IMG/VR virus record: IMGVR_UViG_2778261246_000010
Direction: 5' to 3' (one strand)
Length of the DNA: 33,479 nt
DNA from: a virus
Lineage: Duplodnaviria; Heunggongvirae; Uroviricota; Caudoviricetes
Below, piece by piece: positions 4,253 through 18,613 of this stretch; within the stretch, counting starts at the first letter, position 1, and every line of letters begins with the position of its first letter. A program made the position numbers and the translations under genes. The notes beneath the pieces were generated by a model. It had not been told where the DNA came from, did not search any database, and saw only the letters and a list, made by a program, of their open reading frames with translations.

Positions 4253-4929
4253 CGCCATTGCTCCCCAAATACAAAACCAATTTCAGCCAGTGCCTCGTCC
4301 ATTTTTTCGATGAACTCCGGCACCATCTCGTCAAAACTCGCCATGTAATTTTCATCCCGCTCAACCACGACATAATGCAGTCCTTCACGCTTCATACGCG
4401 GGTCATAGTTGGCAAAGTACCAGGCATCTTTTCGTGTCACCCACATGCTGTACTGCACCTGGGCCATGTAAGCCGACTTTATGGCCTCGAAACCACCGAG
4501 CCGGAACTTCATGAAATCCCGGGAGGTAAACGGGCATTTCAGCTCAAGGCCATTGCCGTCACTGCATAAACCATCGGGAGAGCAGGCGGTGCGCATACTT
4601 TCGTCGCGATAGATGATCGGGGATTCAGTAACATTCACGCCGGAAGTGAATTCAAACAGAGTTCTGGCGTCGTTCTCGTACTGTTTTCCCCAGGCCAGCG
4701 CCTTAGCATTAACTTCCGGAGCCACACCGGTGCAAACCTCAGCCAGCAGGGTGTGGAAGTAGGACATTTTCATGTCAGGCCACTTCTTTCCTGAGCGGGG
4801 CTTTGCTATCACGTTGTGAACTTCTGAAGCGGTGATGACGCCGAGCCGTAATTTGTGCCACGCATCATCTCCCTGCTCGATAGCTCTCACGTCGATCCCG
4901 GTACGCTGCAGGATAATGTCCGGTGTCAT
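4249..4929 (-). CDS. exo: Lambda-type exonuclease (Red-alpha)
   Basis: 226-aa translation matches my recollection of lambda Exo almost residue for residue. Confidence 0.95.
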
Positions 4930-5711
4930 GCTGCCACCTTCTGTTCAGTGGCTTTTTGTTTCAGGAATCCAAGAGCTTTCACTGCTTCGTCCTGTGTCAG
5001 TTCTGACGATGCACGAATGTCGCGGCGAAATATCTGGGAACAGAGCGGCAATAAGTCGTCATCCCATGTTTTATCCAGGGCGATCAGCAGAGTGTTAATC
5101 TCCTGCATGGTTTCATCGTTAACCGGAGTGATGTCGCGTTCCGGCTGACGTTCTGCAGTGTATGCGGTATTTTCGACAATGCGCTCGGCTTCATCCTTGT
5201 CATAGATACCCGCAAATCCGAAGGCCAGACGGGCACACTGAATCATGGCTTTATGCCGTAACATCCGTTTGGGATGCGACTGCCACGGCCCCGTAATTTC
5301 TCTGCCTTCGCGGGTTTTGAATGGTTCGCGGCGGCATTCATCCATCCACTCGGTAACGCAGATCGGATGATTACGGTCCTTGCGGTAAATCCGGCATGTA
5401 CAGGATTCATTGTCCTGCTCAAAGTCCATGCCATCAAACTGCTGGTTTTCATTGATGATACGGGACCAGCCATCAACGCCCACCACCGGAACGATGCCGT
5501 TCTGCTTGTCAGGGAAGGCGTAAATTTCTTTCGTCCACGGATTAAGGCCATACTGGTTGGCGACGATCAACAATGCGATGAACTGCGCATCGCTGGCATC
5601 ACCTTTAAATGCCGTCTGGCGAAGAGTGGTGATCAGTTCCTGTGGGTCGACAGAATCCATGCCGACACGTTCAGCCAGCTTCCCTGCCAGCGTTGCGAGT
5701 GCTGTACTCAT
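4926..5711 (-). CDS. bet: Single-strand annealing recombinase Bet (Red-beta)
   Basis: 261-aa translation matches lambda Bet; ATGA overlap with exo. Confidence 0.95.
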
Positions 5712-5716
5712 CCGTT

Positions 5717-6133
5717 TTATACCTCTGAATCAATATCAACCTGGTGGTGAGCAATGGTTTCAACCATGTACCGGATGTGTTCTGCCATGCGCTCCTGAAA
5801 CTCAACATCGTCATCAAACGCACGGGTAATGGCTTTTTTGCTGGCCCCGCAGCGTTGCAAATGATCGATGCAGAGTGATTCAAACAGGTGCTGGGGCAGG
5901 CCTTTTTCCATGTCGTCTGCCAGTTCTGCCTCTTTCTCTTCACGGGCGATCTGCTGGTAGTGACGCGCCCAGCTCTGAGCCTCAAGACGATCCTGAATGT
6001 AATAAGCGTTCATGGCTGAACTCCTGAAATAGATGTGAAAATATCGCCCGCGAAATGCCAGGCTGATTAGGAAAACAGGAAAGGGGGTTAGTGAATGCTT
6101 TTGCTTGATCTCAGTTTCAGCATTAATATCCAT
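5717..6133 (-). CDS. gam: Gam, RecBCD inhibitor
   Basis: 138-aa translation matches lambda Gam with a few substitutions; includes the internal MNAYYIQ start of the short form. Confidence 0.9.
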
Positions 6134-6231
6134 TTTTTATAAGCGTCGACGGCTTCACGAAACATCTTTTCATCGCCAATAAAAGTGGCGATAGTGAATT
6201 TAGTCTGGATAGCCATAAGTGTTTGATCCAT
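6088..6231 (-). CDS. kil: Kil, host cell-division inhibitor (47 aa)
   Basis: [47 protein letters not shown] lies inside the listed 89-aa ORF and matches lambda Kil. Confidence 0.8.
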
Positions 6232-6364
6232 TCTTTGGGACTCCTGGCTGATTAAGTATGTCGATAAGGCGTTTCCATCCGTCACGTAATTTACGGGTGA
6301 TTCGTTCAAGTAAAGATTCGGAAGGGCAGCCAGCAACAGGCCACCCTGCAATGGCATATTGCAT
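6200..6364 (-). CDS. cIII: CIII, inhibitor of FtsH (stabilises CII)
   Basis: Hand translation gives [54 protein letters not shown] (54 aa), matching lambda CIII; missing from the ORF track because under 60 aa. Confidence 0.9.
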   Translation of the reverse strand: MQYAIAGWPVAGCPSESLLERITRKLRDGWKRLIDILNQPGVPKNGSNTYGYPD

Positions 6365-6436
6365 GGTGTGCTCCTTATTTATACATAACGAAAAACGCCT
6401 CGAGTGAAGCGTTATTGGTATGCGGTAACGCAGCGC

Positions 6437-6805
6437 TCAGGCGGCTTTGATAGTCATATCATCTGAATCAAATATTCCTGATGTATCGATATCGGTAATT
6501 CTTATTCCTTCGCTACCATCCATTGGAGGCCATCCTTCCTGACCATTTCCATCATTCCAGTCGAACTCACACACAACACCATATGCATTTAAGTCGCTTG
6601 AAATTGCTATAAGCAGAGCATGTTGCGCCAGCATGATTAATACAGCATTTAATACAGAGCCGTGTTTATTTAGTCGGTATTCAGAGTCTGACCAGAAATT
6701 ATTAATCTGGTGAAGTTTTTCCTCTGTCATTACGTCATGGTCGATTTCAATTTCTATTGATGCTTTCCAGTCGTAATCAATGATGTATTTTTTGATGATT
6801 GACAT
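6437..6805 (-). CDS. ea10: Ea10-like early protein (122 aa)
   Basis: Size and position between cIII and ral match lambda ea10. Confidence 0.7.
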   Translation of the reverse strand: MSIIKKYIIDYDWKASIEIEIDHDVMTEEKLHQINNFWSDSEYRLNKHGSVLNAVLIMLAQHALLIAISSDLNAYGVVCEFDWNDGNGQEGWPPMDGSEGIRITDIDTSGIFDSDDMTIKAA

Positions 6806-6833
6806 CTGTTCATATCCTCACAGATAAAAAATC

Positions 6834-6851
6834 GCCCTCACATTAGAGGGC
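6834..6851 (-). terminator. Putative terminator between ral and ea10
   Basis: Palindrome GCCCTC-acatta-GAGGGC flanked by A/T runs on both sides. Confidence 0.45.
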
Positions 6852-6987
6852 AAAAAAGATTTCCAATAATCAGAACAAGTCGGCTCCTGTTTAATTATGA
6901 GCGACATTGCTCCGTGTATTCACTCGTTGGAATGAATGCACAGTGCAGTGTTTATTCTGTTGTTTATGCCAAAAATAAAGGCCACTA

Positions 6988-7188
6988 TCAGGCAGCTTTG
7001 TTGTTCTGTTTACCAAGTTCTCTGGCAATCATTGCCGTCGTTCGTATTGCCCATTTATCGACATATTTCCCATCTTCCATTACAGGAAACATTTCTTCAG
7101 GCTTAACCATGCATTCCGATTGCAGCTTGCATCCATTGCATCGCTTGAATTGTCCACACTATTGATTTTTATCAATAGTCGTAGTCAT
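6988..7188 (-). pseudogene. ral: ral (restriction alleviation) interrupted by an in-frame TAG at codon 10
   Basis: Minus strand reads ATG ACT ACG ACT ATT GAT AAA AAT CAA TAG TGT GGA ..., i.e. MTTTIDKNQ*CGQFKRCNGCKLQSECMVKPEEMFPVMEDGKYVDKWAIRTTAMIARELGKQNNKAA; the rest is colinear with Ral. Confidence 0.7.
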
Positions 7189-7316
7189 ACGGATAGTCCT
7201 GGTATTGTTCCATCACATCCTGAGGATGCTCTTCGAACTCTTCAAATTCTTCTTCCATATATCACCTCAAATAAGTGGTTTGCTGCCTAATTTTATTTTC
7301 TGGCGACCAACACAAG

Positions 7317-7589
7317 TCACCTTGCTGTCAGTTGTTTTGATTTCCTGTAGCCTGCCGCGTAAAGAGCTACATTTGGAAGACAAGTTGAGCCTTCATATTT
7401 TCTGGTCAACGTTGTCAGTGTTATTACTTCTGCTCTCATTGCTGGTTTGCGCTTGCATTGCAAGACCACTCGTGAGGGGGTTGGCCTGTGTAGCTTGTCG
7501 GAGCTAATCGACTCCTGACTTTGCAGATTTGCGCGACGAGCTCTACGGCGAGAAGCTGCGGTGCCTTTAAATTCTGTTTTTCTGGACAT
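7317..7589 (-). CDS. N: N-type transcription antiterminator (90 aa, non-lambda specificity)
   Basis: Begins MSRKTEFKGTAASRRRARRA with an arginine-rich motif; GGGAGGAA Shine-Dalgarno 4 nt upstream of the ATG; first gene of the leftward operon. Confidence 0.75.
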   Translation of the reverse strand: MSRKTEFKGTAASRRRARRANLQSQESISSDKLHRPTPSRVVLQCKRKPAMRAEVITLTTLTRKYEGSTCLPNVALYAAGYRKSKQLTAR

Positions 7590-7613
7590 AGATTCCTCCC
7601 GAATAAACTCTGG

Positions 7614-7665
7614 CGATGCAATCCCGAAGCTACTCCTGAGAGGGGTGCTTCGGCATTGCATCCCA
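7614..7665 (-). promoter_or_regulatory. Long hairpin in the N leader (candidate RNase III processing site)
   Basis: 16-bp near-perfect inverted repeat (gatgcaatcccgaagc / gcttcggcattgcatc) with a 16-nt spacer, between nutL and the N ribosome-binding site. Confidence 0.4.
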
Positions 7666-7687
7666 CAGCTTATGTGGTTGGGTGATC

Positions 7688-7733
7688 TGGCTTTTCAGCC
7701 ACGTAGTCGAGTGTTCGACGTTGTTTAAAGAGC
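7688..7733 (-). promoter_or_regulatory. nutL (boxA plus boxB-like hairpins)
   Basis: Minus strand reads GGCTCTTTAAA...GTCGAacacTCGAC-tacg-TGGCTGAAAAGCCA; the same architecture recurs as nutR downstream of cro. Confidence 0.6.
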
Positions 7734-7779
7734 CTGCCAGTCTGTTCCGTTTGGCTTACAGCGTCCTGCTGATGAGTTA

Positions 7780-7835
7780 ACTTTATCGAAATGATAAATT
7801 AATGGCAATAGCAAAATGATAAATTGTTTTAGTTT
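7780..7835 (-). promoter_or_regulatory. Putative OL operators / pL
   Basis: Two copies of ATGATAAAT(T) matching the operator-like motif repeated in the cI-cro intergenic region; correct position upstream of nutL and N. Confidence 0.4.
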
Positions 7836-8000
7836 TCAAATATCCTGTTGATTATTATGGTTTTTTTATTTGATTGCAGGAATTTATCAGAAGGAATAAA
7901 GAGACTTGAGGGGGATCAGAATTGCGCGTTTTAGTGAGTTGTATCTGTTTATTTTTCAACAAATACAATTGGTTATGGTGTTTTTAGGTGGGGGATCGAG

Positions 8001-8030
8001 AGGCAAAGAAAACCCGGCTCGGTGGCCGGG
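8001..8030 (-). terminator. Intrinsic terminator ending the leftward immunity transcript
   Basis: Minus-strand hairpin CCCGGC-cacc ga-GCCGGG followed by TTTTCTTTG, 14 nt after the stop of the 341-aa gene. Confidence 0.55.
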
Positions 8031-8043
8031 GTTAGATTTTCTG

Positions 8044-9069
8044 TTATGGGCGAGTGATGGTTGATGCGTTTCCGTTTTCTATTACACCTGCTCGTATCGT
8101 GTAGCTTCCCAAGATTTTTACTGTCCTGTTTTCTTTCATTGCATCAAACAGTATGGCGATCTCGTCTTTATCATCTATGAACGACGTGTCCACCGAAACA
8201 GGGAAACTGTCTTCACTAGATGGTTCGCGGCAGCTTAGGGTTATCTTTTCCGCAGTACGCTTGATTCCATCAATGACTAATTCAAGGTTTCTTTCTTCTT
8301 TTTTTGCTTTTTCGATAGGGTTCTTGATTAGTTCGTGGATTTCTTTGTTAGACAGTTCAACTGTGCTTGCGCCTGATATGACAATTTTGTCAGCATCAGA
8401 CGCGCCTTTTAATACCCCTGTATACGCTTTTGCAGTATGCTCTTGAATCCCTTCGGCGCGCTCTACTGCATCTATGCCCGCTTTAGCTCTAATCGCCTCA
8501 AGCATTCCGTCCCTTAATATCGTCATGCGCTCGTTTTCTGATTTAATCTTGGCTTCTTCGAGCTTTGTTTCTTCTTGCTTGACTTCTACTTCGGCTTTTT
8601 TCTCTAAGTATGATGTACCAACCCATGCACCGCCTATAACGGTGACAGCAAACAAGAAGCATAATGTTTTTTGGCTAGGACTCATACCGTGTGTTACCTT
8701 CTCAAAGGCTTTACCGAATGCTTCAAAAAGCTCTGTTAATGCAGCAAGTATATCAGTACAACCTTCATTAATGGTAAAGATGATCTCTGCTTCCTCTTTA
8801 TCTTTACCAGTTAACCTTTGAAGGTTGTCAGTTTTATATTTTATTAGTGTGAAAACTTTATAAATTTCAGTCTGAAATTCGCATAAACCCTGAGCTAGAG
8901 GAGATGGAAGCGTTCCGTTGTAGCGAGAAGGATCACCATAAATCTTAAAATTCACATTATTGAAGAGGTCTAACTTGATCCTGTCGATAGTGATCTCTTC
9001 GCCACCATCTAACCTTGCAAACAAAGATTCAATGTCGTCCAGACTTGAAACATTAATAATATCTTTCAT
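8044..9069 (-). CDS. 341-aa protein in the Rex position (one predicted TM helix, coiled-coil C-terminal half); candidate exclusion/abortive-infection protein
   Basis: Long ORF directly downstream of cI on the same strand; about 33-38% GC by eye on sampled lines; hydrophobic segment TLCFLFAVTVIGGAWVGTSYL; charged helical region; TATAAT-like -10 and AAGGTG Shine-Dalgarno upstream. Confidence 0.8.
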   Translation of the reverse strand: MKDIINVSSLDDIESLFARLDGGEEITIDRIKLDLFNNVNFKIYGDPSRYNGTLPSPLAQGLCEFQTEIYKVFTLIKYKTDNLQRLTGKDKEEAEIIFTINEGCTDILAALTELFEAFGKAFEKVTHGMSPSQKTLCFLFAVTVIGGAWVGTSYLEKKAEVEVKQEETKLEEAKIKSENERMTILRDGMLEAIRAKAGIDAVERAEGIQEHTAKAYTGVLKGASDADKIVISGASTVELSNKEIHELIKNPIEKAKKEERNLELVIDGIKRTAEKITLSCREPSSEDSFPVSVDTSFIDDKDEIAILFDAMKENRTVKILGSYTIRAGVIENGNASTITRP

Positions 9070-9149
9070 TACAACACCTTCGGCACAACCTTGCTAGTTA
9101 AATTAGTGATTATAAAAATTGGATACTTACCAGCTATGTGACGATGAAG

Positions 9150-9854
9150 TCACGAACTTTTCAGCCACTCCCTTGCCTCGATGTCATCCAGATGGCGAGA
9201 TTGCTTCAGAATACCAGCCACATACTCCACCTTTGCTACTTGATGATAAGGCAACGTTATTGGCCTGTGGTCTTGGTTGATGCTTGTAAATTGGTATTCT
9301 CCATCTCTGTCATAGCCAAGAACCTTAATCATGTTGTGTCCTTCAACGGTTCTGACAAACACCTCATCACCCGGGAATACTTTGGTGTTAGGCTCAATGA
9401 GTACATATTCTCCTGATTTTATTCTAGGCCACATGCTGTCTCCTTTCACACGAAGACCAAAGGCATCTGGATCATCGCTATAAATCTTGAGCCACCCATC
9501 GCGCTCTTCGGTCATCTCGATGGCACCATCAACACCAAGAATTGCCTCACCAACCACGCGCACTAACCCTTTTCTTACCTGACCGACAAAAGTTAAAGAA
9601 TCTGAGCATGATGCAATTGGTGTTACATCATGTACCAAATCAAGCCACCCATTAGGTAACCCAAGTGCGGCTTCGAATTTTCTTGCTAGTTTATCCCCTA
9701 TGTTTCGAGTGCTTTTTTCACCGGAGACTTGCGTGAGTTGAGAAGGGCTAACTCCAAGCTTATCGGCAAAGCTTGCATTAGTGTTACCCGCGATTTTTTT
9801 ATGCTCATCTAGCAAAAACGCCAGATTCGATTTGCGAATATCTTTGTTTTCCAT
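9150..9854 (-). CDS. cI: CI-type prophage repressor (HTH plus S24 LexA-like autopeptidase domain)
   Basis: N-terminal HTH, C-terminal GDSMWPRI motif typical of S24 self-cleaving repressors; GAGGGAG Shine-Dalgarno; divergent from the cro-like gene. Confidence 0.9.
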   Translation of the reverse strand: MENKDIRKSNLAFLLDEHKKIAGNTNASFADKLGVSPSQLTQVSGEKSTRNIGDKLARKFEAALGLPNGWLDLVHDVTPIASCSDSLTFVGQVRKGLVRVVGEAILGVDGAIEMTEERDGWLKIYSDDPDAFGLRVKGDSMWPRIKSGEYVLIEPNTKVFPGDEVFVRTVEGHNMIKVLGYDRDGEYQFTSINQDHRPITLPYHQVAKVEYVAGILKQSRHLDDIEAREWLKSS

Positions 9855-9877
9855 CCCACGATTCTCCCTCTATTTAG

Positions 9878-9953
9878 CAAATGGATAAATACGCATTTTG
9901 ATAAATCTCCATTGCAGTTTATTTATCAAAATGGTAAAGTTGCTCTGTATGAT
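9878..9953. promoter_or_regulatory. OR operators with divergent pRM/pR
   Basis: Three copies of TGGATAAAT / TTGATAAAT / ATTTATCAA (two as a 13-bp inverted pair) and a TATGAT -10 candidate, between divergent cI and cro. Confidence 0.5.
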
Positions 9954-9967
9954 AAACGGAGGCACTA

Positions 9968-10201
9968 ATGAGTAATGAACTACTACGCTGGCGAAAAGAG
10001 GCTTCTAGTGAGGAATGGAAGCGACTCGCCGCATTAGCGAATACTTCAGTTGGCTATCTTGATCAGATTGCATATGGGTTTCGAAGAGCTTCCCCAGATA
10101 AAGCGAATGCAATCGAAGAAGCCACTCGTAATTTCACGGGTTATAAACCTGTGAAAAAGGAAAATCTGGTGTTCGTATCGCGTAGAGCATCAGCAGCATA
10201 A
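9968..10201 (+). CDS. cro: Cro-like HTH regulator (77 aa)
   Basis: Small ORF divergent from cI with an HTH-like segment (ALANTSVGYLDQIAYGFRRAS). Confidence 0.65.
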   Translation: MSNELLRWRKEASSEEWKRLAALANTSVGYLDQIAYGFRRASPDKANAIEEATRNFTGYKPVKKENLVFVSRRASAA

Positions 10202-16581: not shown

Positions 16582-16656
16582 GGGTCAGTCGTATAAAGGT
16601 CATTACGGAAGGCTGTTAACCTTCTTATCGTGGTTCGAGTCCACGCTGTCCCGCCA
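16582..16656 (+). tRNA. tRNA-like gene, anticodon GTT (Asn); acceptor and D stems imperfect
   Basis: Hand-folded cloverleaf: anticodon stem GAAGG/CCTTC with loop CTGTTAA, T-arm CGTGG-TTCGAGT-CCACG, 3-prime CCA; one acceptor-stem mismatch. Confidence 0.5.
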
Positions 16657-16661
16657 AATAT

Positions 16662-16737
16662 GCTGGTTTAGCTCCAATGGTAGAGCAGTCGCCTTGTAAG
16701 CGAATGGGTAGCGGTTCAAGTCCGTTAACCAGCACCA
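16662..16737 (+). tRNA. tRNA, anticodon TGT (Thr)
   Basis: Perfect 7-bp acceptor stem GCTGGTT/AACCAGC, D-arm GCTC-CAATGGTA-GAGC, anticodon loop CTTGTAA, T-loop TTCAAGT, 3-prime ACCA. Confidence 0.7.
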
Positions 16738-16855: not shown

Positions 16856-17071
16856 ATGAAATCAATGGACAAAATCTCTACTGGCATTGCCTACGGAACA
16901 TCCGCTGGTAGTGCGGGATACTGGTTTTTACAGTGGTTGGATCAGGTCAGTCCGTCACAGTGGGCTGCAATTGGTGTGCTGGGAAGTCTAGTTCTGGGCT
17001 TTTTGACTTATCTGACAAATCTGTACTTCAAAATCAGAGAAGACAGAAGAAAGGCTGCGAGAGGTGAATAA
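16856..17071 (+). CDS. S: Class II holin / pinholin (phage 21 S-type) with dual-start motif
   Basis: 71-aa, two TM segments, MKSM dual-start motif; matches my recollection of the S21 pinholin. Confidence 0.9.
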
Positions 17072-17568
17072 TGCCTCCGTCATTACGAAAAGCTGTTGCA
17101 GCTGCTATTGGTGGCGGGGCTATTGCTATAGCATCAGTGTTAATCACTGGTCCAGGTGGTAACGATGGTCTGGAAGGTGTCAGCTACATACCATACAAAG
17201 ATATCGTTGGCGTATGGACTGTATGTCACGGGCATACAGGAAAAGACATCATTCCCGGTAAAACGTATACCGAAGCAGAATGCAAAGCCCTCCTGAATAA
17301 AGACCTTGCCACGGTAGCCAGACAAATTAACCCGTACATCAAAGTCGATATACCGGAAACAACGCGCGGCGCTCTTTACTCATTCGTTTACAACGTGGGT
17401 GCTGGCAATTTCAGAACATCGACGCTTCTGCGCAAAATCAACCAGGGCGATATCAAAGGCGCATGTGATCAGCTACGTCGCTGGACATACGCTGGCGGTA
17501 AGCAATGGAAAGGTCTGATGACTCGTCGTGAGATTGAGCGTGAAGTCTGTTTGTGGGGGCAACAATGA
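17071..17568 (+). CDS. R: SAR endolysin (phage 21 R-type lysozyme)
   Basis: Gly/Ala-rich N-terminal signal-anchor-release segment followed by a lysozyme domain; start overlaps the holin stop. Confidence 0.9.
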
Positions 17569-17660
17569 GCATGATTTGCTTTTTCATGGCAGCGTTGCTC
17601 GCATTCAATGGCAACGATGCGTGGCCGTGGTTTCTGGCCGTTGGAGTGTTGATGTCATGA
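17565..17660 (+). CDS. Possible 31-aa hydrophobic peptide between endolysin and the Rz-like start
   Basis: Hand-translated [31 protein letters not shown]; ATGA overlaps at both ends. Confidence 0.3.
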
Positions 17661-17806
17661 GTCGGTTAACCGCGATTATCTCCGCTCTGGTTATCTGCAT
17701 CATCGTCTGCCTGGCGTGTGGCGGCGCATTTTCTGGTGTCGTTCATTGTCGGCGTACTGGGCGCAGAGGTTCTGGCATCCTGGCTGGTAAAGCATACAGG
17801 GTTTGA
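17657..17806 (+). CDS. Rz-like i-spanin N-terminal fragment (49 aa), diverging after the TM segment
   Basis: [19 protein letters not shown] matches the lambda Rz N-terminus, then the frame diverges and stops; no embedded Rz1-like lipoprotein found. Confidence 0.35.
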   Translation: MSRLTAIISALVICIIVCLACGGAFSGVVHCRRTGRRGSGILAGKAYRV

Positions 17807-17943
17807 CGGTGCTCCCGTCGACGCACTGTGTGCAGTGCTGGTGTCAGTGGTGTCGGTGAAGATTCTCTCGTTCATCCACCAGCAGGATATTGCATCGCTG
17901 GTGTCCGGTGTGTTCTCCCGCCAGCGAGGCGGAGGAGGCGGTA

Positions 17944-18219
17944 ATGTTAAGTAACCTTCCCGGATTGCTGAATGTGGCGTTATGCACGGTTATCGTGCTG
18001 ACGCTCTTTTTTTATCGTCGTCGCGATTCCAGGCATAAACCGCTGATGTCATGGCTGGCCTGGCTGCTGATGCTGCTGTATGCCTTTGCGCCTCTCAGCT
18101 ATCTGTGTGGTTGCCCGTTAGCAACGGGCTGGCTGGATGTGTTTTTTAATCTGCTGTTCTGCGTGCTGGTGATACGCGCACGCGGGAACGTCACAAGAAT
18201 CTTTCCATTGTTGAGGTGA
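17944..18219 (+). CDS. Small membrane protein (91 aa, about 3 TM segments); holin-like candidate
   Basis: Strong GGAGGAGG Shine-Dalgarno 7 nt upstream; three hydrophobic stretches; immediately upstream of the M15 peptidase gene. Confidence 0.55.
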   Translation: MLSNLPGLLNVALCTVIVLTLFFYRRRDSRHKPLMSWLAWLLMLLYAFAPLSYLCGCPLATGWLDVFFNLLFCVLVIRARGNVTRIFPLLR

Positions 18220-18221
18220 AT

Positions 18222-18599
18222 ATGTCGGGTAAATTCAGATTCAGCCGCCGGAGCGAGAAAAATCTGGAAGGCGTCAAACCACAGCTGGTTGCTGTAGTTC
18301 GCCGCGCCCTTGAACTGTCGGAGGTTGATTTCGGTATTACGGAAGGCCTGCGCACGAAAGAACGCCAGAAACAGCTGGTTGCAGAAGGCAAGAGCCAGAC
18401 CATGAACAGCCGCCACCTGACCGGTGATGCGGTGGATGTTGTGGCCTGGGTTGGCAGCCAGGTGTCATGGGACTGGCCTCTGTACGAGAAAATCGCGCAG
18501 GCATTTAAGCAGGCTGCCGCAGAGCTGGGAACTGCCATCGAATGGGGCGGGGACTGGAAAACGCTGAAAGACGGACCTCACTTTCAGTTGAAGCGTTGA
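18222..18599 (+). CDS. Peptidase M15-family zinc peptidase (VanY-like; candidate second endolysin)
   Basis: SxHxxGxAxD motif present as SRHLTGDAVD plus a downstream His; start 2 nt after the preceding stop. Confidence 0.75.
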   Translation: MSGKFRFSRRSEKNLEGVKPQLVAVVRRALELSEVDFGITEGLRTKERQKQLVAEGKSQTMNSRHLTGDAVDVVAWVGSQVSWDWPLYEKIAQAFKQAAAELGTAIEWGGDWKTLKDGPHFQLKR

Positions 18600-18613
18600 T
18601 AATCAGGTGGGTT

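What the first reader, a model, noticed from the sequence alone, without database searches (positions are those of the whole stretch)
6988..7188. ral carries an in-frame TAG in place of Trp-10
The minus strand reads ATG ACT ACG ACT ATT GAT AAA AAT CAA TAG TGT GGA CAA..., which is Ral residue for residue except that the codon aligned to Trp (TGG) is TAG. The neighbouring genes are intact. This is either a natural inactivation of the restriction-alleviation function, a suppressor-dependent allele, or a sequencing error.
Basis: seen in the sequence. Interest (0 to 1): 0.5.

Follow-up and report, generated by a model that had tools for sequence, protein, structure and literature searches.

The report
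Nonsense-inactivated ral gene in prophage
A lambda-like prophage of a wild E. coli lineage carries the small, non-essential anti-restriction gene ral knocked out by a single real G-to-A change (Trp-10 to amber stop); this is ordinary prophage gene decay that RefSeq already flags as a pseudogene.

Summary
Window 6988-7188 (minus strand) is lambda Ral residue for residue, except that codon 10 is TAG instead of TGG. The changed base is window 7160.

The allele differs from the commonest intact ral nucleotide allele by that one G>A transition. It is real and inherited. The same TAG is in the complete genome of E. coli RM10740, where PGAP already marks the CDS "pseudo, internal stop". It is also in an independent draft assembly, GCA_017899135.1. 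The window differs from RM10740 by an IS insertion and two SNPs.

The allele is private to this lineage: 1 of 597 complete E. coli genomes with ral, 0 of 47 phage records, and 0 exact hits in IMG/VR, JGI metagenomes or GTDB representatives.

No amber suppressor was found. The prophage tRNAs are Asn and Thr. RM10740 has wild-type glnV/glnX and no supF, supD, supP or supU allele.

The stop precedes the four invariant cysteines (C11, C17, C20, C26), so the allele is almost certainly null. Ral is dispensable, so the loss only removes the phage's help against Type IA restriction. Other natural ral lesions exist (R16*, G19*, a deletion, and the common K60*).

Verdict: ordinary, already annotated, low interest.

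The parts
6988..7188 (-). ral pseudogene: 66 codons plus stop, with an in-frame TAG at codon 10
   Evidence: Translation. Pfam PF11058 matched full length at E = 1.6e-48 once W is restored. PGAP marks the same CDS 'antirestriction Ral family protein', pseudo, internal stop, in NZ_CP043821.1 2738296-2738496.
7159..7161 (-). Premature amber codon TAG (Trp-10 TGG>TAG). The mutated base is window 7160, which is nt 29 of the ORF and NZ_CP043821.1 position 2738324.
   Evidence: It is the only difference from the commonest intact nucleotide allele, 28 of 116 loci. It is unique among 597 complete E. coli genomes and 47 phage records that match the probe.
6988..7110 (-). Residual 40-codon ORF starting at Met-27 (MVKPEEMF...). 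It is the only ORF left in the ral frame and lacks all four invariant cysteines.
   Evidence: ORF list. It matches Pfam Ral positions 27-66 only. C11, C17, C20 and C26 are invariant in 21 homologues.
7172..7258 (-). orf28 homologue (28 aa), intact. Its last 17 nt overlap the ral start codon region.
   Evidence: PHROG 16060 matched full length at E = 7e-19.
7317..7589 (-). Antiterminator N-like gene (90 aa), intact, immediately upstream in the leftward early operon
   Evidence: PGAP CDS WP_047674109.1. Pfam N_peptide PF25694 on the identical protein. PHROG 271 'anti-termination protein N-like'.
6437..6805 (-). ea10-like DUF2528 gene (122 aa), intact, immediately downstream of ral
   Evidence: PHROG 646 matched full length.

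Best explanation
This is a genuine, inherited nonsense mutation. A G>A transition on the coding strand at ORF nt 29 (window 7160) converts Trp-10 of Ral to an amber stop. It lies in a lambdoid prophage integrated next to torI/intS in an E. coli lineage that includes the feral-pig isolate RM10740. Translation ends after nine residues, ahead of the four invariant cysteines and the conserved C-terminal half, so no functional Ral is made. Ral is a non-essential early gene of the leftward operon. Its known role is to speed de novo methylation by Type IA restriction-modification enzymes such as EcoKI, so that more unmodified phage genomes survive entry into a restricting host. The expected consequence is that phage released from this lysogen would lose that partial protection, with no effect on lysogeny, induction or growth. 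No polarity on the downstream genes ea10, cIII, kil, gam, bet and exo is expected, because N-antiterminated transcription resists Rho. Shown here: the mutation, its reality, its rarity, the absence of suppressors in RM10740, and the conservation of what is lost. Inferred: the null phenotype, the lack of polarity, and neutral decay as the cause.
For: TAG at codon 10. Single-base difference from the commonest intact allele. The same TAG in RM10740, annotated there as pseudo with an internal stop. The same TAG in GCA_017899135.1, which is 100% identical to the window over 5273 bp. The window differs from RM10740 by a 1336-bp IS3-family insertion and 2 SNPs, so these are distinct genotypes sharing the lesion. 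The allele is derived and private: 1 of 597 E. coli genomes, 0 of 47 phages, 0 in IMG/VR, metagenome and GTDB-representative scans, against at least 120 IMG/VR contigs with TGG. C11, C17, C20 and C26 are invariant and W10 is 20 of 21 in diverged homologues. No suppressors were found. The same prophage shows other decay: a partial holin, and in RM10740 IS4 in J and an IS3-family element in the lysis module. Other natural ral lesions exist: R16*, G19* and an internal deletion. Ral's function and non-essentiality come from PMC12707154, which cites Zabeau 1980 and Loenen & Murray 1986.
Against: No raw reads were inspected. Low-level natural UAG readthrough, or re-initiation at Met-27, cannot be excluded by sequence alone. 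Ochre suppressors other than glnU/glnW (lysine or tyrosine tRNAs with a TTA anticodon), which read UAG weakly, were not probed. The suppressor tests were run on RM10740, a near-clonal relative, not on the unidentified source genome of the window.
Confidence: 0.9

Rival explanations
1. Sequencing or assembly error: the true codon is TGG.
For: Only one of 597 complete genomes shows the TAG, as a random error would.
Against: The same base is found in three separate sequences: the window, RM10740 and GCA_017899135.1. These are not identical genotypes, differing by the SNP at window 9915 and an IS insertion. Inference from general knowledge: a substitution outside a homopolymer is not the typical error of long-read or polished assemblies.
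Confidence: 0.02
2. Suppressor-dependent or readthrough allele: the amber codon is decoded by a suppressor tRNA of the host or phage, so full-length Ral is still made.
For: Amber is the most readily suppressed stop codon. The prophage does carry two tRNA genes.
Against: The prophage tRNAs are Asn-GTT and Thr-TGT. RM10740 glnV/glnX are CTG and glnU/glnW are TTG. CTA-anticodon probes found no supF or supU allele, and no full-length supP allele, in any of 5426 genomes, and supD only in strain DSM 498. supE alleles occurred in 155 records; the 40 listed were mostly K-12 laboratory derivatives. The other internal stop seen in this host (ybeZ) is TAA, not TAG.
Confidence: 0.03
3. Re-initiation at Met-27 yields a 40-aa C-terminal fragment that retains some Ral activity.
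For: The 40-codon ORF is open. It has a weak GGA motif 4-6 nt upstream of its ATG. The fragment still matches Pfam Ral positions 27-66. Gene callers sometimes choose this start even in intact ral, in 4 of 10 places.
Against: The fragment lacks C11, C17, C20 and C26, which are invariant across Escherichia, Salmonella, Citrobacter, Kluyvera, Cronobacter, Providencia, Proteus, Pantoea and Erwinia homologues. No natural family member begins at this position, apart from truncated calls at disrupted or miscalled genes.
Confidence: 0.03
4. Loss of ral is selected in lysogens rather than neutral, for example because leaky Ral weakens the host's own Type IA barrier. The TAG would then be one of several convergent knock-outs.
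For: Several independent early lesions were seen: W10*, R16*, G19* and a deletion after codon 13.
Against: Early truncations are rare among complete E. coli genomes: W10* 1 of 597 and R16* 0 of 763. Most alleles are intact. The only common 'stop' allele, K60* at 58 of 774, trims just the variable tail. The same prophage carries unrelated decay.
Confidence: 0.05

Closest known systems
Bacteriophage lambda ral (restriction alleviation protein, 66 aa; Pfam PF11058)
   Same: Identical at 65 of 66 codon positions to the majority Ral protein allele. Same position in the leftward early operon, after N and orf28 and before ea10 and cIII.
   Different: Codon 10 is TAG instead of TGG, so the gene is a pseudogene. 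There is no sieB between N and ral, so the arrangement resembles the phage 21/DE3-type records, which match without a gap. N is of a different type from lambda N.
F1748_RS13570 of E. coli RM10740 (NZ_CP043821.1 2738296-2738496), annotated 'antirestriction Ral family protein, pseudo, internal stop'
   Same: The same allele, 100% identical over the 401-bp query, in the same prophage.
   Different: The RM10740 prophage carries an extra IS3-family insertion and differs at 2 SNPs from the window.
Other natural ral lesions in enterobacterial prophages (R16* CGA>TGA, G19* GGA>TGA, deletion after codon 13, K60* AAA>TAA)
   Same: Point or deletion lesions in an otherwise lambda-identical ral.
   Different: Different positions. 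K60* is common (58 of 774 genomes) and probably harmless, because the tail is variable. W10* is private to one lineage.
Laboratory amber alleles of lambda genes (such as Sam7 or Nam7am53), which depend on supE/supF hosts
   Same: TGG>TAG is the classic single-step route to an amber codon (own knowledge).
   Different: This is a wild isolate with no suppressor in the related complete genome. The gene is non-essential, so there is nothing to maintain a conditional allele.

Membership tests
Ral antirestriction family (PF11058) | Sequence matches the family profile above the curated threshold over its full length | tested here: met
   162.5 bits against a cut-off of 25, positions 1-66 of 66, with W restored at codon 10.
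Ral antirestriction family (PF11058) | Uninterrupted reading frame encoding the invariant C11/C17/C20/C26 cluster and the conserved C-terminal half | tested here: not met
   TAG at codon 10 precedes all four cysteines. It is therefore a pseudogene of the family, not a functional member.
Ral antirestriction family (PF11058) | Location in the N-dependent leftward early operon of a lambdoid phage, between N and cIII | tested here: met
   Gene order is N, orf28, ral, ea10, cIII, kil, gam, bet, exo.
Ral antirestriction family (PF11058) | Alleviates restriction and enhances modification by Type IA R-M systems | not testable with these tools
   Known for lambda Ral from the literature (PMC12707154). 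It needs a plating assay.
Suppressor-dependent (conditional amber) allele | An amber-suppressing tRNA is present in the phage or its host | tested here: not met
   Phage tRNAs are Asn-GTT and Thr-TGT. RM10740 glnV/X are CTG and glnU/W are TTG. No supF, supD, supP or supU allele in RM10740. Lys and Tyr ochre suppressors were not probed.
Genuine nonsense pseudogene (as opposed to an artefact) | The lesion is reproducible in independent assemblies | tested here: met
   Present in the window, in RM10740 and in GCA_017899135.1. The genotypes are distinguished by a SNP and an IS insertion.
Genuine nonsense pseudogene (as opposed to an artefact) | Derived state: one mutational step from a widespread intact allele, and rare | tested here: met
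   One G>A change from the commonest allele. 1 of 597 genomes, 0 of 47 phages and 0 in three large contig collections.

The most novel reading that the evidence does not exclude
The several independent early knock-outs of ral seen in prophages (W10*, R16*, G19*, a deletion after codon 13) might reflect selection on lysogens to silence a phage gene. If leakily expressed, Ral would push the host's Type IA enzyme to methylate, and so admit, unmodified foreign DNA. On this reading the TAG is an adaptive domestication step rather than neutral decay.
Probability: 0.05. Interest if true: 0.35.

Novelty: already known. Interest (0 to 1): 0.07.

Why it matters
It matters little. It is a correct annotation point: ral in this prophage should be called a pseudogene, as RefSeq already does for RM10740. 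It should not be called a 40-aa 'Ral family protein', as some gene callers do. It adds one data point on how accessory anti-defence genes decay in resident prophages. Any phage induced from this lineage would be predicted to plate somewhat worse on hosts with Type IA restriction such as EcoKI or EcoBI.

Tried and rejected
- **Exact 30-mer scans for the TAG allele.** These found nothing in IMG/VR, JGI metagenomes or GTDB species representatives. The source genome of the window was therefore not identified.
- **Looking up the 40-aa remnant product.** I expected other W10* carriers. The call returned R16* and G19* alleles, plus intact genes with a miscalled start.
- **Looking up the neighbouring 341-aa protein.** The 10 places shown were mosaic contexts with no ral nearby. 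The lookup with N did find a W10* carrier, L143.
- **Reading RM10740's supE status off the probe result.** This was not possible, because 155 records matched and only 40 were listed. I resolved it by locating and reading RM10740's own glnV/glnX locus. One search failed on a range limit.
- **Two internal stops as a hint of suppression.** The host ybeZ stop is TAA, so the idea was rejected.
- **Laboratory lambda amber stock.** Rejected: the source lineage is a feral-pig isolate and the prophage is a mosaic with non-lambda N and immunity regions.
- **A gene on the opposite strand.** The 83-codon ORF at 6914-7165 (+) overlaps ral antisense, and PGAP annotates nothing there. I did not pursue it.

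Full report
**1. The observation**

The minus strand of window 6988-7188 reads ATG ACT ACG ACT ATT GAT AAA AAT CAA TAG TGT GGA CAA ... It translates to MTTTIDKNQ*CGQFKRCNGCKLQSECMVKPEEMFPVMEDGKYVDKWAIRTTAMIARELGKQNNKAA*.

- The TAG is at window 7161-7159 on the minus strand.
- With Trp restored, the 66-aa product matches Pfam PF11058 (Ral) end to end at E = 1.6e-48.
- The restored product is identical to the majority Ral protein allele in 116 IMG/VR loci.
- Lambda's own records differ from a 59-nt probe centred on the codon by one base.

**2. Where the window comes from**

The 401-bp region matches one complete genome at 100%: E. coli RM10740, from feral pig faeces in California, NZ_CP043821.1. 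There PGAP annotates F1748_RS13570 as "antirestriction Ral family protein", pseudo, "internal stop". The feature is therefore already recorded in a public annotation.

The window is not that record.

- It lacks a 1336-bp IS3-family insertion that RM10740 has between the class II holin and rrrD. A 15-bp duplication, CTGCGAGAGGTGAAT, flanks the insertion.
- It differs at two SNPs, window 9915 and 31254.

A lookup of the adjacent N protein returned L143 from the draft assembly GCA_017899135.1. L143 carries the same TAG and is 100% identical to window 4817-10089, including the SNP that separates the window from RM10740. From the coordinates, that contig would end near window position 18111, so the window probably comes from a third assembly. 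That last point is inference.

The TAG is therefore shared by at least two distinguishable genotypes and predates their divergence. A sequencing error is effectively excluded.

**3. How unusual the allele is**

| Collection and probe | Result |
|---|---|
| 59-nt probe centred on TAG, complete E. coli genomes | 100% match only in RM10740, out of 597 genomes with a hit |
| Same probe, phage records | 0 of 47 at 100% |
| Exact 30-mer with TAG, IMG/VR | 0 |
| Exact 30-mer with TAG, JGI metagenome contigs | 0 |
| Exact 30-mer with TAG, GTDB species representatives | 0 |

At the nucleotide level, the window's ral equals the commonest intact allele (28 of 116 loci) plus one G>A transition at ORF nt 29. 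It is a derived, private, single-step nonsense mutation.

**4. Could it still be decoded?**

The prophage's two tRNA genes, at 16582-16737 (+), are Asn-GTT and Thr-TGT.

For the host, I built probes from the K-12 tRNA genes with only the anticodon changed to CTA. I searched all 5426 complete E. coli genomes with them.

| Suppressor type | Result |
|---|---|
| supF (tyrT/tyrV) | 0 genomes |
| supD (serU) | strain DSM 498 only |
| supP (leuX) | no full-length match |
| supU (trpT) | 0 genomes |
| supE (glnV/glnX) | 155 records; the 40 listed were mostly K-12 laboratory derivatives |

Because not all supE hits were listed, I located RM10740's own glnX-glnV-metU-glnW-glnU locus by synteny and read it. 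The anticodons are CTG, CTG, TTG and TTG, all wild type. A second "internal stop" noticed in this host, in ybeZ, is TAA, so it gives no hint of amber suppression.

Two things were not tested. One is ochre suppressors in lysine or tyrosine tRNAs. The other is the exact source genome of the window, as opposed to its near-clonal relative RM10740.

**5. What is lost**

I aligned the repaired protein with 20 diverged full-length homologues of 64-80% identity. They come from Citrobacter, Kluyvera, Cronobacter, Salmonella, Providencia, Proteus, Pantoea and Erwinia.

- C11, C17, C20 and C26 are invariant.
- W10 is present in 20 of 21.
- A conserved block runs from M27 to L58.
- Residues after 58 vary in both sequence and length.

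Termination at codon 10 therefore removes every conserved feature. The only remaining ORF in frame starts at Met-27 (window 6988-7110, 40 aa) and would lack the whole cysteine cluster. It has only a weak GGA upstream. I infer a null allele.

**6. What Ral does**

Ral is a non-essential lambda gene. It accelerates methylation of unmodified DNA by Type IA enzymes (the EcoKI family, acting through the HsdM N-terminal domain). This raises the survival of unmodified phage. Type IB and IC enzymes do not respond (PMC12707154, citing Zabeau et al. 1980 and Loenen & Murray 1986).

Loss of Ral should therefore only reduce the plating of progeny phage on Type IA-restricting hosts. Polarity on ea10, cIII, kil, gam, bet and exo is not expected, because N-modified transcription resists Rho. 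That is an inference from lambda biology.

**7. Context of decay**

The immediate neighbours are intact: N, orf28, ea10, cIII, kil, gam, bet and exo. The prophage as a whole is not pristine.

- A partial holin pseudogene lies at window 17706-17954.
- In RM10740 an IS3-family element sits in the lysis module.
- In RM10740 IS4 splits J, and a partial HTH pseudogene lies next to intS. The J region is outside the window.

Other natural ral lesions turned up along the way.

- R16* (CGA>TGA) occurred in 5 of 10 draft-assembly places, and G19* (GGA>TGA) in one. G19* also appeared in one IMG/VR locus.
- An internal deletion after codon 13 occurs in L146 and L151.
- K60* (AAA>TAA) occurs in 13 of 116 IMG/VR loci and in 58 of 774 complete E. 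coli genomes.
- R16* is absent from the 763 complete E. coli genomes that match its probe.

K60* trims only the variable tail and is probably a functional polymorphism. The early stops are rare, as expected for occasional decay of a dispensable accessory gene.

**8. Comparison, novelty and verdict**

This is lambda ral in every respect except the stop codon. It fails the "uninterrupted frame" test, so it is a pseudogene of the Ral family rather than a functional member.

- It is not a conditional amber allele, since no suppressor was found.
- It is not an artefact, since it is reproduced in separate assemblies.
- It is already flagged in RefSeq.

The most novel reading still open is that lysogens select for loss of ral. 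That has only weak support from the handful of independent lesions, and the rarity of such lesions among complete genomes argues against it.

Verdict: a real but ordinary nonsense pseudogene. Interest is about 0.07.

Noticed in passing
window 8044-9069 (-): A 341-aa gene lies directly downstream of the cI-like repressor (9150-9854, minus strand), in the position rexAB holds in lambda. It has no Pfam or PADLOC match and falls in PHROG 6191, 'unknown function'. The identical protein is on record in 1186 blocks of the assembly collection, in very mosaic prophage contexts. It is a candidate lysogen-expressed exclusion or defence gene.
   Followed up: partly
window 6437-7316 (-); loci L133-L152: The slot between N and cIII is highly variable among prophages that share the same N or the same 341-aa gene. 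Here it holds orf28-ral-ea10. Elsewhere it holds Nmad5 (PF18757) or unknown genes of 149, 285 or 322 aa. It looks like an accessory or anti-defence cargo hotspot.
   Followed up: no
window 7267-7316 (-): Just after the stop of N, an out-of-frame remnant reads ...VTCVGRQKIKLGSKPLI*. From memory this resembles the C-terminus of a phage-21-type N, so it is probably a mosaic recombination joint inside an ancestral N gene.
   Followed up: no
window 16856-18600 (+): Two lysis cassettes sit in tandem. The first is a class II holin plus RrrD lysozyme. The second is a partial holin pseudogene (17706-17954), a holin and an M15 peptidase. RM10740 has an extra 1336-bp IS3-family element inserted at window 17055-17069, flanked by a 15-bp duplication, which the window lacks.
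   Followed up: partly
ral homologues in L002-L152 and in complete E. coli genomes: A K60* (AAA>TAA) ral allele that removes only the variable 7-residue tail is common: 13 of 116 IMG/VR loci and 58 of 774 complete E. coli genomes. R16* (CGA>TGA) occurs in several draft assemblies but in none of 763 complete E. coli genomes. G19* and a deletion after codon 13 also occur.
   Followed up: partly
ral homologues in L124, L127, L129, L132: Gene callers sometimes call only the 40-aa Met-27 ORF even when ral is intact, in 4 of 10 places. As a result the '40-aa Ral' product in 364 database blocks mixes true truncations with miscalled starts.
   Followed up: yes
window 16582-16737 (+): The prophage carries tRNA-Asn (GTT) and tRNA-Thr (TGT) between Q and the lysis genes. 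Neither is a suppressor.
   Followed up: yes
L158 40594-41634 (RM10740 chromosome, outside the window): The host gene ybeZ (PhoH family) has an internal TAA stop at codon 222 in RM10740, and pagP is interrupted by IS5. This strain carries other pseudogenes.
   Followed up: partly
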